This document shows, in pieces, positions 35,162 to 57,051 of a stretch of DNA of 64,000 nt. Position 1 is the stretch's first letter; each line of letters starts with the position of its first letter. The translations under genes and the position numbers were made by a program. The stretch covers positions 2,836 to 66,835 of IMG/VR virus record IMGVR_UViG_3300032038_000071. One strand, 5' to 3'. The notes below the pieces were generated by a model. That model was not told the origin of the DNA and did no database searches. It saw nothing but the letters and a program-made list of their open reading frames with translations. The DNA comes from a virus.

Positions 35162-37885
35162 CTAACTTAATAAGAAGTCAAGTACCTCTGACTTACTCAT
35201 ATCAACCTTACCATCCACAAGAGCATCTGACATAGCACCTTTCTTCTGTACAAGTTCATGGATTCTTTCGTCTATTGTATCCTTACACATAAGGTTGTAG
35301 ATTGTAACATTATGCTTCTGTCCTACTCTGTGGCATCTATCTGTTGCTTGGTCGTATAATGCTCTGTTCCAAGGTTCGTCAAGAAATATCTCAACTGTTC
35401 CTGCGGTGAGAGTGAGACCTGTACCCATAGCGCCAATTGTACCTATAATGTATTTACACTCAGGATTATTCTGAAAATGATTTACATTTACCTGTCTATC
35501 AGCATCGTTTGTCTGACCAGTAATGACAACACCTTTATACTTCTTTGCAAGTCTGGCTCTAATAACATCTGTCATCTGCGTCCAGTTAGAAAAGATAACA
35601 ACTTTCTTTCCATTCTCTATTGCTTCTTCAACAAGTTCTTCCATTCTATCAAGCTTTGCACTTTCCTGTATCTTGCTTGAAAGAATACCTGTATAACCTG
35701 TAGCTTGTCTCATTCTGATTAATTCTGCAAGTGGATTAGGTGCTGTCTTTATGTTATCAATATTACTCTGAATATCTGCTGTGACCTCTTTATAGATAAC
35801 AGCTTGCTTTGGTGTCATATCAACGTATTCATCTATGTATGTCTTTTCCGGTAAGTCTAATACATCATCTTTAAGTCTACGTAACATTATGTCATTAAGT
35901 CTTTCCTGTAACTCGTCAAGATTCTTATAGCCGACTACTTCATATCCGCCATAGCCACCCATTACACAATAATGATTTTTAAATCTGTAAAAGGCATTCT
36001 TTTCATAACCAAGCCATTTAAGAATTATGTATAAGTCCATAGGCTGATTCATAAGTGGTGTACCTGTCATAGCTATACGACATTCAGATTGTAATTTAAG
36101 AATACCTTTGCCCTGCTGACTTGATGGGTTCTTACACTTATGTATCTCATCAATAGCTATAATACCTATCTCACCCGATTTGCATTTATTTGCGATTTCA
36201 GACACGATTTTTTCATCACGCATAGTTTCTACATTCGTTATAATAAAATACGCTCCAAGTGCTTCCAAATTGCAAATATCAGTATATTTATCTGCATTAG
36301 ACCCTATAACAATTTTATCGTTCTTAATTCTCTGTCCAAGAATGTATGCTTCCTCATCTGAATGTGTATGAATTTCATTAACCCAGTTCCATTTAAGACC
36401 ATTAACTCCGCATACTATAAGACAATGCTTGTATCCTTTCTGTAATTTCTTTGCTACTGCTATATCAATGACTTGTTTTGTGTTATGAGTTACTACAAAA
36501 TGCTCGGCTAAATACAGATGGTCATTACTATCAACTGTAATACACTTTGCGTCTGCATTATCAATCTTTTCAATAGCAATTATATTTCTTCTTGTCTTGA
36601 AATGTCGGTCTTTCAATAATGATTTTTTACGAGTAAGAGTACAATACAGTTGAGGTCTATCAAATTTAATAGTCAGATTGTAACTTGTTCCCGTAATCTT
36701 TCCATCATAACCACACTCACTTTCAGAGTAACTTACAATACCACCTAAACTTTCAACTAAAAATCTTACATCTTCACATAACTGTTTTGATACAGTTGAA
36801 TAAGTTAATAAATTATCAGATGTTGCATAGCCATCCGTATCAATAAGTCCTTGTAATACTTCTGTTCTAACTGCGATTGAATTGTACTTGTATATATCTG
36901 GAATGAATTTTGTGTGAGAGTTTCTTCCATGTAAATCTAAATCAGTAAGTGCTTTTCTTATTATATTAGTTTTGCCTTGTATATCAGTACCTTTAATATA
37001 ATATTCAATATCTCCCATACTTGGTGCTGAATACAACTCATAGCCTTTAGGTAATCTTGAATTGATATTATCTACCATTTCACTATCAATCGTAGTAAAT
37101 CTTATTGTATGGGTAGTAATTCCACCATCACCTAACAATGCACCTAATACATAAGGCTCTATTGGCACTTCTTGATATTCAAATTGAACAGGTTTACATC
37201 TATCTATGTAATATTTGTAACTTCCAGAACCTTCGCTGAATAGATTATCTTTTCGTACATTTCCGAATTGGTCTTTCTTAGTAAACCATTCTGTATCAAC
37301 TACTTTAGTTCCATGTTGGTCATGTATCTGCCATAAATGGTCTTTACAACAATCAATACTTACTCCATCAGAAAATGTAATACGATACATTTCAACATTC
37401 TTATGATAGTATGTGGCAGTTACTTTAGTTGGGCTACCGTCTTTACCAAATACATAATCTCCAACTTCAATATCTTTCATTTCCTTGTACCCTGTTGGAG
37501 TATATATTTTAGTATTTAATGCAAGTGCTTTTCCAAGACCCTGTTCATCACCTAACAGCCATCTGTCGTACTTCAATCCAAAATTAAACCCATCAATCTG
37601 ATGCTCAAAAGGTTTTGTTTTGAAGTTGAAGTTAGCTGGTGTTTCAGCTTTCTTATCTTCAAATGATATGTACTTGCCTGAAATATCAAAATCAAAGTCC
37701 TGTAAGTTATCTATAAGATACTGTATCTTTTTTACAGGTATTTCCCACTCTTTTGTATCTTTGTTCCAATATCTTGTGGGCAGTTCTCTTACTGTATCAA
37801 CCACTTTCTGGTTGTAGTCAAATGATACAAAAGCTGAATAATCATCATCTATATTTTTAGAGTTTTTAATCTGTATCGTTATCAT
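35162..37885 (-). CDS. SNF2-family helicase interrupted by an intein (558-aa extein plus 349-aa intein)
   Basis: Motif I is split as DEQGLGK / TKQVIDIA. Other motifs seen are IAIDEIHKCKNP (motif II), MTGTPLMN (motif III) and QATDRCHRVGQKHNVTIY (motif VI). Confidence 0.9.
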   Translation of the reverse strand: MITIQIKNSKNIDDDYSAFVSFDYNQKVVDTVRELPTRYWNKDTKEWEIPVKKIQYLIDNLQDFDFDISGKYISFEDKKAETPANFNFKTKPFEHQIDGFNFGLKYDRWLLGDEQGLGKALALNTKIYTPTGYKEMKDIEVGDYVFGKDGSPTKVTATYYHKNVEMYRITFSDGVSIDCCKDHLWQIHDQHGTKVVDTEWFTKKDQFGNVRKDNLFSEGSGSYKYYIDRCKPVQFEYQEVPIEPYVLGALLGDGGITTHTIRFTTIDSEMVDNINSRLPKGYELYSAPSMGDIEYYIKGTDIQGKTNIIRKALTDLDLHGRNSHTKFIPDIYKYNSIAVRTEVLQGLIDTDGYATSDNLLTYSTVSKQLCEDVRFLVESLGGIVSYSESECGYDGKITGTSYNLTIKFDRPQLYCTLTRKKSLLKDRHFKTRRNIIAIEKIDNADAKCITVDSNDHLYLAEHFVVTHNTKQVIDIAVAKKLQKGYKHCLIVCGVNGLKWNWVNEIHTHSDEEAYILGQRIKNDKIVIGSNADKYTDICNLEALGAYFIITNVETMRDEKIVSEIANKCKSGEIGIIAIDEIHKCKNPSSQQGKGILKLQSECRIAMTGTPLMNQPMDLYIILKWLGYEKNAFYRFKNHYCVMGGYGGYEVVGYKNLDELQERLNDIMLRRLKDDVLDLPEKTYIDEYVDMTPKQAVIYKEVTADIQSNIDNIKTAPNPLAELIRMRQATGYTGILSSKIQESAKLDRMEELVEEAIENGKKVVIFSNWTQMTDVIRARLAKKYKGVVITGQTNDADRQVNVNHFQNNPECKYIIGTIGAMGTGLTLTAGTVEIFLDEPWNRALYDQATDRCHRVGQKHNVTIYNLMCKDTIDERIHELVQKKGAMSDALVDGKVDMSKSEVLDFLLS
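36482..37528 (-). mobile_element. intein (HINT domain plus double-LAGLIDADG homing endonuclease), class-3-like
   Basis: It spans residues 120-468 of the SNF2 ORF. It starts ALALNTKIYTP and ends VVTHN followed by Thr+1. LAGLIDADG motifs are YVLGALLGDGG and VLQGLIDTDGY. The Ala1, Trp185 (DHLW), Cys448 (AKCITV) and Thr466 (THN) pattern is present. Confidence 0.85.
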
Positions 37886-39728: not shown

Positions 39729-40577
39729 CTAAAAGCTACCGTTGCAACCACATCCGCAACCTGTATTATTATTGCACTGGAATATAGGCTGTCTGCCATA
39801 TACAGGAACAGTAGGAACAGGACAGTTAGAAAGTCTGTTATAAAGCTGGTCAACCTCATTGTTAAGACCCTGTGCTATAAATGCGTTCTGTGCTGTCTGA
39901 CTTGCCGCAAGATTAGCCATTGTAAGCTGTCTCTCAAGGTCTGCAATCTTTGTATTCTTGCCATCCAGTTCAAGCTGGCAAAGTTTATCAATGATTGTCT
40001 GTGTTCCTCTTGTCTGACTGTCTATAATATCCCTTGTGTTCATCATAGACTGTGTTCTATCAGCACAATTCTCTGTAGCTACTGTGTACTTGAGGTCTGC
40101 AATACCAAGTCTGTTTTCACAGCAACAATCGGCAAGCTGTGACTGAACACCATTAAAGCCCTGATTCATGGCTGTCTGTGTGGCAAAAGCTGTCTGCATA
40201 TTAGCCATCTGTCTTGCGTTTGCACCCTGTTCTACACCTGCAAAACCGTTGCAAAGTGCCATCTGAATATCACTGCCTGTATTGCAAAGCTGTGTTGACA
40301 GATTGTTTACTCCGTCTCTTATGGATGTGATGTTGTCATTAAGCATCTGATTCTGGAATCCTTCACTTGTAATGTTAGCTTGGTTCATCCATGGATATAT
40401 TGAATTATATCCACCACCAAAGCCACCATTACCGCCCCAACCATTACCGTTGAAAGCGAAAAGGAAAAGAACGAGAAGCCACCAAGCACCGTCTCCACCA
40501 AAACCACCGAAACCATTGTTACCGGTTACTGCGGCTACATCTGCGGCGGAAAGTCCGCCATTTTCTGCTAAAGACAT
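39729..40577 (-). CDS. Gly/Asn-rich, 12-Cys membrane-anchored protein (282 aa)
   Basis: GFGGFGGDGAWWLLVLFLFAFNGNGWGGNGGFGGG is one hydrophobic helix flanked by Gly-rich tracts. The rest is Q/N-rich with CCC and a C-terminal CNNNTGCGCGCNGSF. Confidence 0.65.
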   Translation of the reverse strand: MSLAENGGLSAADVAAVTGNNGFGGFGGDGAWWLLVLFLFAFNGNGWGGNGGFGGGYNSIYPWMNQANITSEGFQNQMLNDNITSIRDGVNNLSTQLCNTGSDIQMALCNGFAGVEQGANARQMANMQTAFATQTAMNQGFNGVQSQLADCCCENRLGIADLKYTVATENCADRTQSMMNTRDIIDSQTRGTQTIIDKLCQLELDGKNTKIADLERQLTMANLAASQTAQNAFIAQGLNNEVDQLYNRLSNCPVPTVPVYGRQPIFQCNNNTGCGCGCNGSF

Positions 40578-56279: not shown

Positions 56280-56939
56280 CTAATTATTATTTGGTTTCTG
56301 TCTAATACCTGCAAAGTGGAATCCGAATGGATTTTCATTAGTATTAGGCACGTTTGTCTGTGAACTTACTGATTGTGCAAATGCAGGCTTTGGTGTGTCA
56401 TCTTCTTTCTTTTCAACTACAAAAGCATCTGCATTTTCTGTGGAATAGCTTGTCACAAAATCATCTGCTCCAAGTATCTTACCGTTGTCCATCTTCAATT
56501 CTTTTGCAATCATTGAATTAATAAAGTCTCTCTTTGCGGCATTACTTGTAAACTTCTTTGAACTTGCAAAGTCCTTTACTGCAAACTCATATGCCTGCTT
56601 ACTCAACTGTTCCTGATAAGACTTAATATCATTATCATACTTTGTCTGTAGAGAATTAAATTCTCCGGTGAGTGCGGTCAACTTATCTACATCTGTACCA
56701 GCCGCTTCAAGTTTTCCCTTTAAGTCTGCTAAATCATTATCTCTTGTAGTGATTGTAGCGTTAAGGGTTTCGATTGCGGAATCTTTTGCTTTTAAATCAT
56801 CTTCATACTTATTCTTGCTGACATACTTTCCCTCACCTAAATCAGTAAAGTTAGCATTAGATTCCTTTGATAGTTTCTGGAACATTTCATAGGTAAGTGT
56901 TCCGTTTTCAGACTTCTTAAATAATTCCTCGATTGTCAT
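56280..56939 (-). CDS. scaffolding protein (GP20-like)
   Basis: 219 aa and helical. MTIEELFKKSENGTLTYEMFQKL...FTDLGEGKYVSKNKYEDDLKAKD resembles the phage GP20 scaffold N-terminus. Confidence 0.7.
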   Translation of the reverse strand: MTIEELFKKSENGTLTYEMFQKLSKESNANFTDLGEGKYVSKNKYEDDLKAKDSAIETLNATITTRDNDLADLKGKLEAAGTDVDKLTALTGEFNSLQTKYDNDIKSYQEQLSKQAYEFAVKDFASSKKFTSNAAKRDFINSMIAKELKMDNGKILGADDFVTSYSTENADAFVVEKKEDDTPKPAFAQSVSSQTNVPNTNENPFGFHFAGIRQKPNNN

Positions 56940-57051
56940 AATCTGTTTCTCCTTTACATTCTTTTATATCCGTTTAGCTTGTAAATCCGCAGGTACGGTA
57001 CTGCGTTTGAATGTGCATTTGTTTAAATGTCTTTATGCTCGACTATATATC

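What the first reader, a model, noticed from the sequence alone, without database searches (positions are those of the whole stretch)
36482..37528. Class-3-type (Ala1 / Trp-Cys-Thr) intein with a double-LAGLIDADG endonuclease inside the Walker A loop of the SNF2 helicase
The 907-aa SNF2 ORF reads ...WLLGDEQGLGK | ALALNTKIYTPTGY ... HFVVTHN | TKQVIDIAVAKK. Removing residues 120-468 (349 aa) restores the canonical SNF2 motif I, GLGKT. The insert has HINT blocks: an N-terminal ALALNTKIYTP, a block B CCKDHLW, and a C-terminal VVTHN followed by Thr+1. It also carries two LAGLIDADG motifs (YVLGALLGDGG and VLQGLIDTDGY). Residue 1 is Ala rather than Cys, Ser or Thr. All three positions that define class 3 inteins are present: Trp two residues after the block B His (DHLW), Cys in block F (AKCITVD) and Thr before the penultimate His (THN). 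Class 3 inteins splice through a block F thioester branch and are a small minority of known inteins. Characterised cases include a mycobacteriophage DnaB intein and a Deinococcus Snf2 intein. An apparently intact, endonuclease-bearing copy in a low-GC phage helicase is of interest as an active mobile element and as a splicing tool.
Basis: partly seen in the sequence, partly recalled or inferred. Interest (0 to 1): 0.7.

Follow-up and report, generated by a model that had tools for sequence, protein, structure and literature searches.

The report
Class 3 intein in phage helicase
A phage SNF2 helicase gene is interrupted, exactly inside its ATP-binding loop, by an intact self-splicing protein element (a class 3 intein that carries its own homing endonuclease); it is a clean example of a kind of mobile element already described in phage helicases and common in metagenomes.

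Summary
The 907-aa SNF2 ORF (35162-37885, minus strand) carries a 349-aa insert (36482-37528) between Lys119 and Thr469 of the Walker A motif. Removing it gives a 558-aa protein that is colinear with intein-less homologues of 556-566 aa, which read GLGK|TKQV (119 of the 120 best hits; 77 intein-less against 3 intein-bearing IMG/VR contigs).

The insert has every sequence feature of a class 3 intein: Ala1, His B:10, Trp B:12, Cys F:4, Thr G:5, His-Asn and Thr+1. Its best sequence matches among solved structures are the class 3 DnaB inteins 6bs8 and 6rix. Its centre matches PI-SceI, with the equivalents of PI-SceI Asp218, Lys301 and Asp326 conserved. The AlphaFold model is confident (pLDDT 95.8) and matches PI-SceI over its full length. 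dN/dS is about 0.11 for both the splicing and endonuclease parts, the same as for the exteins.

It is not unusual. Class 3 inteins were defined in 2010 as mostly P-loop inserts in helicases, SNF2 included. The same kind of intein sits unannotated in the helicases of phages PhiPA3, Alice and FishSpeaker. An exhaustive search found 4,947 representative clusters at E<=1e-30, and the closest ones almost all carry the Trp-Cys-Thr triplet.

Verdict: real and probably active, but a new member of a known kind. Splicing and homing are inferred, not shown.

The parts
35162..37885 (-). Precursor gene: SNF2-family helicase with the intein, 907 aa plus stop, predicted 103.6 kDa
   Evidence: ORF list. Pfam SNF2-rel_dom spans aa 95-713 across the insert (E 3e-25); Helicase_C covers aa 745-855. 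Masses.
37529..37885 (-). N-extein, aa 1-119, ending ...GDEQGLGK (Walker A up to the invariant Lys)
   Evidence: Colinear with intein-less homologues P0001 and P0004; DNA junction.
36482..37528 (-). Intein, 349 aa (protein aa 120-468), 39.7 kDa
   Evidence: Absent from 119 of the 120 closest helicase homologues.
37175..37528 (-). N-terminal HINT splicing lobe (intein about 1-118). Block A is ALALNTKIYTP (Ala1 at 37526-37528). Block B is IDCCKDHLW (His64/B:10 at 37337-37339, Trp66/B:12 at 37331-37333, Cys61/B:7 at 37346-37348).
   Evidence: Aligns to residues 1-75 of 6bs8 at 41 bits. Beta-strand architecture in the model. Residue coordinates.
36614..37174 (-). Double-motif LAGLIDADG homing endonuclease domain (intein about 119-305). 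Motif 1 is YVLGALLGDGG (37121-37153, Asp134 at 37127-37129). Lys207 is at 36908-36910. Motif 2 is VLQGLIDTDGY (36827-36859, Asp232 at 36833-36835).
   Evidence: Pfam LAGLIDADG_3 and Hom_end. The alignment to PI-SceI puts Asp134, Lys207 and Asp232 on PI-SceI residues 218, 301 and 326. Asp134 and Lys207 are invariant and Asp232 is at least 90% conserved in 64 relatives. Foldseek TMq 0.73 to PI-SceI.
36482..36613 (-). C-terminal HINT lobe (intein about 306-349). Block F is AKCITVDSNDHLYLA (Cys329/F:4 at 36542-36544). Block G is FVVTHN (Thr347/G:5 at 36488-36490, His348 at 36485-36487, Asn349 at 36482-36484).
   Evidence: Aligned to ...VRCVEVDNPEHLYLA...PTHN of 6bs8. Conservation counts.
35165..36481 (-). 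C-extein, aa 469-907, starting with Thr+1 (36479-36481), the Thr of GLGKT
   Evidence: Helicase_C.

Best explanation
This is a class 3 intein with an embedded double-motif LAGLIDADG homing endonuclease. [quoted passage not shown]

Inferred splicing mechanism, following the experimentally established class 3 pathway:
1. The precursor is 103.6 kDa and its P-loop is split, so it is presumably ATPase-dead.
2. The block F Cys329 (protein Cys448) attacks the Lys119-Ala120 peptide bond. It is activated in a Cys-His-Thr arrangement with His64 (B:10) and Thr347 (G:5) and buttressed by Trp66 (B:12). The N-extein is moved onto the Cys as a thioester, giving the block F branched intermediate.
3. The hydroxyl of Thr+1 (Thr469) takes over the N-extein, giving the block G branched intermediate.
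4. Asn349 cyclises, assisted by His348, and releases the 39.7-kDa intein.
5. An O-to-N acyl shift restores GLGKT in a 63.9-kDa, 558-aa helicase.

Inferred homing: the released intein, or the precursor, acts as a site-specific endonuclease on intein-less helicase alleles in co-infecting phages. Asp134 and Asp232 would be the metal ligands, with Lys207 also in the active site. The cut falls at or near the GGN AAR|ACN AAR site, and the intein is copied in by recombinational repair.

Shown here: the sequence, the junction, homology, the predicted fold, conservation, purifying selection and the sporadic distribution. Inferred: actual splicing, dependence on Cys448, endonuclease activity and the target site.
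For: - **Precise insertion.** The spliced sequence is colinear with intein-less homologues of 556-566 aa at 70-90% identity. P0001 reads GLGKTKQVIDIAVAKK. The DNA junction is in frame, with no extein residue gained or lost.
- **Class 3 signature.** Ala1, His64, Trp66, Cys329, Thr347, His348, Asn349 and Thr+1 are all present. They align with the same residues of the solved class 3 inteins 6bs8 (E 5e-13) and 6rix/6riy. The definitions come from PMC2807308 and PMC3196547.
- **Relatives share the signature.** Among the 120 closest relatives, Trp B:12 is present in 118/118, Cys F:4 in 107/110, Thr G:5 in 106/109, Ala1 in 87/108 and Thr or Ser at +1 in 104/106. Among the 146 best representatives of an exhaustive search, 133 of 142 complete domains carry the Trp-Cys-Thr triplet.
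- **Fold.** The AlphaFold model has pLDDT 95.8 and pTM 0.93. Foldseek matches PI-SceI at E 6e-19 and TMq 0.73. It also matches the VMA inteins and PI-PfuI, and 6bs8 with TMt 0.81.
- **Endonuclease intact.** The equivalents of PI-SceI Asp218, Lys301 and Asp326 are conserved.
- **Purifying selection.** Against the copy in L006, omega is 0.11 for the intein and 0.12 for the endonuclease part, against about 0.10 for the exteins.
- **Distribution of a mobile element.** One intein-bearing allele occurs among the 120 best homologues, and 3 intein-bearing against 77 intein-less contigs in IMG/VR.
- **Related inteins in other P-loops.** Relatives at 33-39% identity sit after GxGK in PhoH, DnaA/DnaC-like proteins, terminase, AAA_24 and DnaB.
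Against: - No biochemical evidence exists: neither splicing nor DNA cleavage was tested.
- dS between the two intein copies compared is saturated (1.4), so omega is rough.
- The intein copies differ about as much as their exteins (77% against 80-87% amino-acid identity). The flanks show no co-conversion tract. So there is no sign of recent homing, and the copies may have been inherited vertically for a long time.
- Block B position 7 is Cys, not the Thr of class 1 inteins or the Asp of the Msm DnaB intein. Its effect is unknown.
- Pfam and NCBIfam HINT models alone score below their curated cut-offs.
Confidence: 0.85

Rival explanations
1. The intein still splices, because it must for the helicase to work, but its endonuclease no longer homes. 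On this reading the element is now a vertically inherited passenger in a few phage lineages.
For: The intein and extein divergences between the window and L006 are similar, and the flanks show no co-conversion signal. The intein is rare, at about 4% of alleles, rather than sweeping. No target cleavage was tested.
Against: The endonuclease part is under the same purifying selection as the rest (omega 0.12). Its active-site Asp, Lys and Asp are conserved across 64 relatives. The domain is modelled with pLDDT mostly above 90. A decaying endonuclease would be expected to lose these residues or shrink to a mini-intein, as the Msm DnaB intein did (PMC6195587).
Confidence: 0.2
2. It is an Ala1 intein that splices by the class 2 (KlbA-type) route, with the +1 residue attacking the N-terminal junction directly and no block F thioester.
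For: Residue 1 is Ala, as in KlbA inteins.
Against: According to PMC4031507, class 2 inteins are all KlbA orthologues with Asp at F:4, Ser at G:6 and Cys+1. Here F:4 is Cys, G:6 is His, +1 is Thr and the host is a helicase. Thr is a poor nucleophile for direct attack on an amide. The nearest relatives by sequence and structure are class 3 inteins.
Confidence: 0.03
3. It is a dead insertion, either a decayed intein or an ordinary lineage-specific domain, that stays in the mature protein and leaves the helicase inactive or altered.
For: Decayed class 3 inteins do exist: Arth_1007 (PMC3196547) and the free-standing P0124 and P0125.
Against: Every catalytic position is intact, unlike Arth_1007 and P0124/P0125, which have lost His B:10 and Cys F:4. 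The insert splits GLGK|T, which is incompatible with ATP binding. Even so, the exteins are under strong purifying selection (omega about 0.10). Close homologues lack the segment entirely.
Confidence: 0.03

Closest known systems
Mycobacteriophage Bethlehem DnaB intein (MP-Be DnaB), the class 3 prototype (Tori et al. 2010, PMC2807308)
   Same: Phage-encoded. It has a non-nucleophilic residue 1, Trp B:12, Cys F:4, Thr G:5 and Thr+1. It is full-length, at about 340 aa. The paper states that most such inteins sit in an ATPase P-loop of helicase-type proteins, including SNF2.
   Different: The host protein is different (a DnaB-like helicase, not SNF2). Residue 1 is Pro in MP-Be (the P1C mutant is named) and Ala here. 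I had no MP-Be sequence to align directly.
Mycobacterium smegmatis DnaBi1 and M. chimaera DnaB-1 class 3 inteins (PDB 6bs8, 6rix/6riy; PMC6195587, PMC7664689)
   Same: These are the best sequence matches among solved structures (E 5e-13 and 4e-11). They share the ALAL start, HxW, Cys in block F, the xHLYLA motif and THN, and they are inserted in a P-loop. Foldseek gives TMt about 0.8.
   Different: They are mini-inteins with no endonuclease, about 139-145 aa, in bacterial DnaB. Block B position 7 is Asp (DxxH) where the window has Cys (CxxH). The redox partner Cys48 of DnaBi1 has no counterpart here (Met).
Deinococcus radiodurans Snf2 intein (Brace et al. 2010; cited in PMC3196547 and PMC4031507)
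   Same: It is a class 3 intein in an SNF2/Rad54-family helicase, and the block F branched intermediate was detected experimentally in it.
   Different: It is bacterial. I could not read the paper or obtain the sequence, so whether it occupies the same GLGK|T site and whether it carries an endonuclease was not checked.
Unannotated P-loop inteins in the SNF2/HepA-like helicases of deposited phages: Pseudomonas phage PhiPA3 gp233, Mycobacterium phage Alice gp175 (the 'HEL, related to HepA' entry of PMC5050341), Shewanella phage FishSpeaker, and uncultured phage LR756508
   Same: The architecture is the same: GxGK|A...(C in block F)...THN|T/S, 345-359 aa with an endonuclease. The distribution is equally sporadic: Alice gp175 has 979 aa and its intein-less orthologue Catera gp183 has 620 aa.
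   Different: Identity to the window's intein is only 29-37%. Their helicases are distant (24-31% identity) and belong to jumbo or actinobacterial phages rather than a 35% GC siphovirus-like phage.
PI-SceI (the yeast VMA1 intein)
   Same: It has the same two-domain organisation, HINT plus a double-LAGLIDADG endonuclease. The predicted fold matches over its full length (TMq 0.73), and the active-site Asp, Lys and Asp are conserved.
   Different: PI-SceI is a class 1 intein (Cys1, Cys+1) from a eukaryote, about 100 aa longer and 18-19% identical.

Membership tests
Intein (HINT protein-splicing domain) | An in-frame insertion that is absent from orthologues and whose removal restores the conserved host sequence | tested here: met
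   119 of the 120 best homologues are 556-566 aa and lack it. P0001 reads GLGKTKQV. The DNA junction is clean.
Intein (HINT protein-splicing domain) | Splicing blocks A, B, F and G, with His B:10, a C-terminal His-Asn and a nucleophilic +1 residue | tested here: met
   His64, His348, Asn349 and Thr+1 are present. Among 120 relatives they are conserved in 116/118, 105/108, 104/106 and 104/106.
Intein (HINT protein-splicing domain) | HINT fold | tested here: met
   The AF2 model has pLDDT 95.8. Foldseek hits PI-SceI, the VMA inteins, PI-PfuI, and the DnaB, gp41-1, Prp8 and RecA inteins. This is a predicted structure, not a solved one.
Intein (HINT protein-splicing domain) | Autocatalytic excision with ligation of the exteins | not testable with these tools
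   Needs expression followed by SDS-PAGE and mass spectrometry.
Class 3 intein (Tori et al. 2010) | Non-nucleophilic residue at intein position 1 | tested here: met
   Ala120 of the protein is Ala1 of the intein. Ala is at this position in 87 of 108 relatives.
Class 3 intein (Tori et al. 2010) | Trp at block B position 12, two residues after His B:10 | tested here: met
   DHLW gives His64 and Trp66. It aligns with HQW of 6bs8 and is invariant in 118/118 relatives.
Class 3 intein (Tori et al. 2010) | Cys at block F position 4 | tested here: met
   AKCITVD gives Cys329. It aligns with VRCVEVD (Cys118) of 6bs8 and is present in 107/110 relatives.
Class 3 intein (Tori et al. 2010) | Thr at block G position 5 | tested here: met
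   VVTHN gives Thr347. It aligns with PTHN of 6bs8 and is present in 106/109 relatives.
Class 3 intein (Tori et al. 2010) | [quoted passage not shown] | tested here: met
   Thr469, the Thr of GKT.
Class 3 intein (Tori et al. 2010) | Belongs to the monophyletic class 3 clade | tested here: inconclusive
   The nearest solved structures by sequence are class 3, and 133 of 142 of the closest representative domains carry the Trp-Cys-Thr triplet. No formal phylogeny with class 1 outgroups was built. The class 1 gp41-1 intein is also a fairly close match (6qaz, E 3e-8).
Class 3 intein (Tori et al. 2010) | Obligate Cys F:4 nucleophile and a block F branched thioester intermediate | not testable with these tools
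   Needs a C448A mutant and mass spectrometry of the intermediate.
Class 2 (KlbA-type) intein | Asp at F:4, Ser at G:6, Cys+1, and a KlbA host (PMC4031507) | tested here: not met
   F:4 is Cys, G:6 is His, +1 is Thr and the host is SNF2. Only Ala1 is shared.
Double-motif LAGLIDADG homing endonuclease (PI-SceI type) | Two LAGLIDADG motifs, each with its catalytic acidic residue, in one chain | tested here: met
   LGALLGDGG (Asp134) and LQGLIDTDG (Asp232) align to PI-SceI residues 218 and 326, and Lys207 aligns to residue 301. They are invariant or at least 90% conserved in 64 relatives. That these PI-SceI residues are the catalytic ones is from my own knowledge of the PI-SceI literature.
Double-motif LAGLIDADG homing endonuclease (PI-SceI type) | LAGLIDADG alpha-beta fold | tested here: met
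   Foldseek matches PI-SceI over its full length, and also I-DmoI and I-Tsp061I. Pfam gives LAGLIDADG_3 at 32.7 bits (cut-off 22.5) and Hom_end at 23.8 bits (cut-off 21.1).
Double-motif LAGLIDADG homing endonuclease (PI-SceI type) | Site-specific cleavage of the intein-less allele | not testable with these tools
   Needs purified protein and a cloned homing site.
SNF2-family helicase (host protein) | An SNF2 N-terminal ATPase domain plus Helicase_C, with a Walker A GxGKT motif | tested here: met
   Pfam SNF2-rel_dom scores 89.4 bits and Helicase_C 61.4 bits. GLGKT is restored after removing the intein.

The most novel reading that the evidence does not exclude
The pair of cysteines in block B (Cys179 and Cys180 of the protein, B:6 and B:7, giving a 'CxxH' motif in place of TxxH or DxxH) may lie close enough to the catalytic Cys448 (F:4) to form a reversible disulfide. 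Splicing would then be redox-conditional, and maturation of the phage SNF2 helicase would be held back until the infected, probably anaerobic gut or rumen, cell is in a reducing state. That would make the intein a post-translational switch and not just a parasite. Cys at B:7 is found in 79 of 118 close relatives and 90 of 217 representative domains. That frequency suggests it is selected, but it is not universal. A redox trap involving the F:4 Cys has been shown for the class 3 Msm DnaBi1 intein, with a different partner Cys (PMC6195587).
Probability: 0.1. Interest if true: 0.5.

Novelty: new member of a known kind. Interest (0 to 1): 0.25.

Why it matters
This is a well-preserved, full-length class 3 intein from a low-GC (about 35%) rumen or gut phage. 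It has all its catalytic residues, an apparently intact endonuclease, and natural intein-less target alleles in hand. That makes it a convenient substrate for three kinds of work:
- studying the two-branched-intermediate mechanism outside actinobacteria;
- measuring intein homing among co-infecting phages;
- engineering, because a class 3 intein needs no Cys or Ser at position 1 and tolerates Thr+1.

It does not open a new question. The class, the P-loop insertion site and the helicase hosts have been described since 2010, and the element type is abundant in metagenomes. The practical lesson concerns annotation: such inteins go unmarked in deposited phage genomes, where the host proteins are labelled 'DarB-like antirestriction', 'DNA helicase' or 'hypothetical protein'.

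Tried and rejected
- **Near-identical phage DNA.** megablast of the gene against 50,697 phage records found nothing. The closest cultured relatives of the helicase are Clostridium phage phiCTP1 and Streptococcus phage Dp-1, at about 46% amino-acid identity and without an intein.
- **Catera gp206.** I supposed that the experimentally tested MP-Catera gp206 class 3 intein was the orthologue of the Alice gp175 helicase intein. This was rejected: the Catera orthologue, gp183, has 620 aa and no intein, so gp206 is another gene.
- **Dra Snf2 papers.** I tried to read Brace 2010, Tori & Perler 2011 and Southworth & Perler 2002 for the Dra Snf2 insertion site. None is held, and no supplements are held for Tori 2010.
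- **A second intein in the window.** A family HMM run over all six-frame ORFs found only the helicase intein.
- **Curated HINT models.** Hom_end_hint, Hint_2, PT-HINT, TIGR01445 and TIGR01443 all scored below their cut-offs. Identifying the splicing domain therefore needed the PDB sequence search and the fold search.
- **Co-conversion or a homing-site signature.** All four intein-bearing alleles use AAA for Lys-1, against 32 AAA and 45 AAG among intein-less alleles. The sample is too small and not independent, so I draw no conclusion.
- **Cys180-Cys448 distance.** This could not be measured, because the structure tool returns no coordinates.
Full report
**Observation**

The region lies in a 907-aa ORF on the minus strand, 35162..37885. 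The plus-strand translation of the given coordinates is full of stops. The minus-strand translation is a 349-aa open segment, ALALNTKIYTPTGY...AKCITVDSNDHLYLAEHFVVTHN, preceded by ...WLLGDEQGLGK and followed by TKQVIDIAVAKK.

**Is it an insertion?**

Pfam places one SNF2-rel_dom match across aa 95-713, bridging the segment, followed by Helicase_C. Deleting aa 120-468 gives a 558-aa protein.
- A search of 5.8 billion proteins with that spliced sequence returned 7,396 hits at E<=1e-20. Of the 120 best (70-90% identical), 119 are 540-580 aa, nearly all 556-566 aa, and lack the segment. One, P0013 (905 aa), has it.
- P0001 (90% identical) reads ...GDEQGLGKTKQVIDIAVAKK..., which is exactly the predicted ligated junction.
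- At the DNA level the intein-bearing alleles (window, L006) and the intein-less alleles (L005, L008) are colinear up to the Lys codon and from the Thr codon onward.
- In IMG/VR I found 77 intein-less sites and 3 intein-bearing contigs for this helicase lineage.

The segment is therefore a sporadic insertion that splits Walker A between the invariant Lys and the Thr.

**What is the insert?**

- Sequence. phmmer against all PDB chains gave the class 3 inteins as best hits. These are M. smegmatis DnaBi1 (6bs8, E 5e-13) and M. chimaera DnaB-1 (6rix/6riy, about 1e-10). Next come the gp41-1 intein and its engineered Trp-Cys-Thr variant. The alignments put ALALNT on ALALDT, DHLW on HQW, AKCITVDSNDHLYLA on VRCVEVDNPEHLYLA, and VTHN on PTHN.
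- Endonuclease. The central 160 residues match PI-SceI (E 3e-6). The alignment puts the intein's Asp134, Lys207 and Asp232 on PI-SceI positions 218, 301 and 326. From my own knowledge, these are the PI-SceI active-site residues. Pfam LAGLIDADG_3 and Hom_end pass their curated cut-offs, whereas the HINT-type models in Pfam and NCBIfam do not.
- Fold. An AlphaFold2 model built on 64 aligned relatives is very confident (pLDDT 95.8, pTM 0.93). Foldseek matches it over its full length to PI-SceI (E 6e-19, TMq 0.73), the VMA inteins and PI-PfuI. Its splicing lobes match 6bs8 and 6rix (TMt about 0.8).

**Class**

Tori et al. 2010 (PMC2807308) and PMC3196547 define class 3 by four features: a non-nucleophilic residue 1, Trp at B:12, Cys at F:4 and Thr at G:5, normally with Ser or Thr at +1. 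All are present here: Ala1, Trp66, Cys329, Thr347 and Thr+1.

The features also hold in relatives.
- Among the 120 closest proteins, Trp is present in 118/118, Cys in 107/110, Thr in 106/109 and Ala1 in 87/108.
- Among the 146 best representatives from an exhaustive scan of 1.84 billion representatives, 133 of 142 complete domains carry the triplet, 108 of them with Ala1 and 115 with Lys at -1.

Class 2 is excluded. Those inteins are KlbA orthologues with Asp F:4, Ser G:6 and Cys+1 (PMC4031507).

**Probable mechanism (inferred)**

By analogy with the experimentally established pathway (PMC2807308, PMC4031507, PMC7664689):
1. Cys448, in a Cys-His-Thr arrangement with His183 and Thr466, attacks the Lys119-Ala120 bond and forms a block F thioester branch.
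2. Thr469 takes over the N-extein.
3. Asn468 cyclises.
4. An O-to-N shift restores GLGKT.

While the P-loop is split the precursor should be unable to hydrolyse ATP. This was argued for other P-loop inteins in PMC6195587. The endonuclease would cut intein-less alleles in co-infecting phages and drive homing.

**Signs of activity**

Against the copy in L006 (77% amino-acid identity), dN/dS is 0.11 for the intein, 0.12 for the endonuclease part and about 0.10 for the exteins. dS is saturated, so these values are rough. The catalytic residues of both activities are invariant or nearly so.

There is no signature of a recent homing event. The intein copies are about as diverged as their exteins, and the flanks show no co-conversion tract. 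A splicing-competent but no longer mobile element therefore remains a fair alternative, at about 0.2.

**Context**

The window is a tailed-phage genome with all genes on one strand and about 35% GC. PHROGs identifies a portal protein, tape measure protein, DNA polymerase, primase, DnaB-like helicase and replication initiator; an IstB-like ATPase, a candidate helicase loader, comes from Pfam. The helicase's closest cultured relatives are those of Clostridium phage phiCTP1 and Streptococcus phage Dp-1, at about 46% identity and without an intein. Near relatives lie on rumen and gut metagenome contigs of about 63-65 kb. No other intein of this family is present in the window.

**Comparison with what is known**

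- Tori et al. [quoted passage not shown]
- Kelley et al. 2016 call the Lys|Thr position the 'classic' P-loop intein insertion, and list two inteins in a HepA-related helicase of cluster C1 mycobacteriophages.
- The D. radiodurans Snf2 intein is an experimentally verified class 3 case (cited). I could not check its insertion site.
- I found the same architecture, GxGK|A...C...THN|T/S at 345-359 aa, unannotated in Pseudomonas phage PhiPA3 gp233, Mycobacterium phage Alice gp175, Shewanella phage FishSpeaker and uncultured phage LR756508. These inteins are 29-37% identical to the window's. Catera gp183 is the intein-less orthologue of Alice gp175.
- The window's closest relatives outside SNF2 are P-loop inteins of PhoH, a DnaA/DnaC-like protein of Clostridium phage phi8074-B1, terminase, AAA_24 and DnaB, at 33-39% identity.
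- The exhaustive search found 4,947 representative clusters at E<=1e-30.

**Verdict**

It is a new member of a well-described kind. Its value is as a clean, probably active specimen with natural target alleles available, not as a surprise. Interest is 0.25.

The most novel reading left open is redox-conditional splicing through the block B Cys-Cys pair (CxxH), at a probability of about 0.1.

Noticed in passing
L009 5001-6092 (P0125, 363 aa) and L010 400-1488 (P0124, 362 aa); not in the window: These are free-standing genes 43-45% identical to the window's intein over its whole length. They start MSG/MSE-(I/L)AL(D/N)T and end ...HFVVMS(S/C)K(M/V)SE. The splicing residues are lost (His B:10 to Gln, no Cys at F:4, THN replaced by MSS/MSC), but both LAGLIDADG motifs are intact. 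P0125 sits downstream of the DnaB-like helicase, after a 63-aa ORF, in a related phage whose SNF2 helicase has no intein. The two copies are 73% identical, with dN/dS 0.36 and dS 0.49, and have different upstream neighbours. This looks like a class 3 intein turned into a stand-alone homing endonuclease and not a neutral pseudogene (compare Arth_1007, PMC3196547)..
   Followed up: partly
window 37343-37351 (-): protein Cys179-Cys180, intein block B positions 6 and 7: Block B reads CCKDH, so position B:7 is Cys. Class 1 inteins have Thr there and the M. smegmatis class 3 DnaB intein has Asp. Cys at B:7 occurs in 79 of 118 close relatives and 90 of 217 representative domains. This may bear on redox control of the F:4 Cys, but no distance could be measured.
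   Followed up: partly
L001 1090-4260 (PhiPA3 gp233), L002 1087-4026 (Alice gp175), L004 1075-4194 (FishSpeaker helicase), L003 (LR756508), P0130 (Clostridium phage phi8074-B1): Deposited phage genomes carry class-3-type P-loop inteins (GxGK|A...QCI/VCI...THN|T/S) that are not annotated as inteins. Their host proteins are labelled 'DarB-like antirestriction', 'DNA helicase' or are left unannotated.
   Followed up: partly
L005 4693-5505: In the phage with the closest intein-less helicase allele (P0001), a 270-aa gene with a faint NUMOD3 hit lies immediately downstream of the helicase. It may be a free-standing homing endonuclease. It is absent from the window, L006 and L008, where a 99-aa ORF follows directly.
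   Followed up: no
window 56945-57047 (-): An Rfam GP20-a RNA motif (RF02991, 67.1 bits against a gathering score of 47.2) lies just upstream of the 219-aa ORF 56280-56939 in the head-morphogenesis region.
   Followed up: no
window 36482-37528 versus 35165-36481 and 37529-37885: Third-position GC of the intein is 0.18, lower than in the N-extein (0.32) and C-extein (0.28). This fits a different evolutionary origin or a different codon regime for the intein.
   Followed up: no
L172-L174 (genome contigs): Contigs of about 63-65 kb carrying this phage's helicase are binned into MAGs of unrelated taxa: Ructibacterium, a rumen Bacilli bacterium and a yak-rumen Bacteroidales bacterium. These are probably whole phage genomes mis-binned. 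L174 carries an intein-bearing allele.
   Followed up: no
window 39729-40577 (-): A 282-aa ORF has a Gly-rich N-terminal part (GNNGFGGFGGDG...GNGGFGGG) and a Cys-rich C-terminus (...NNNTGCGCGCNGSF). It has no Pfam hit at E<=0.001. Its function is unknown.
   Followed up: no
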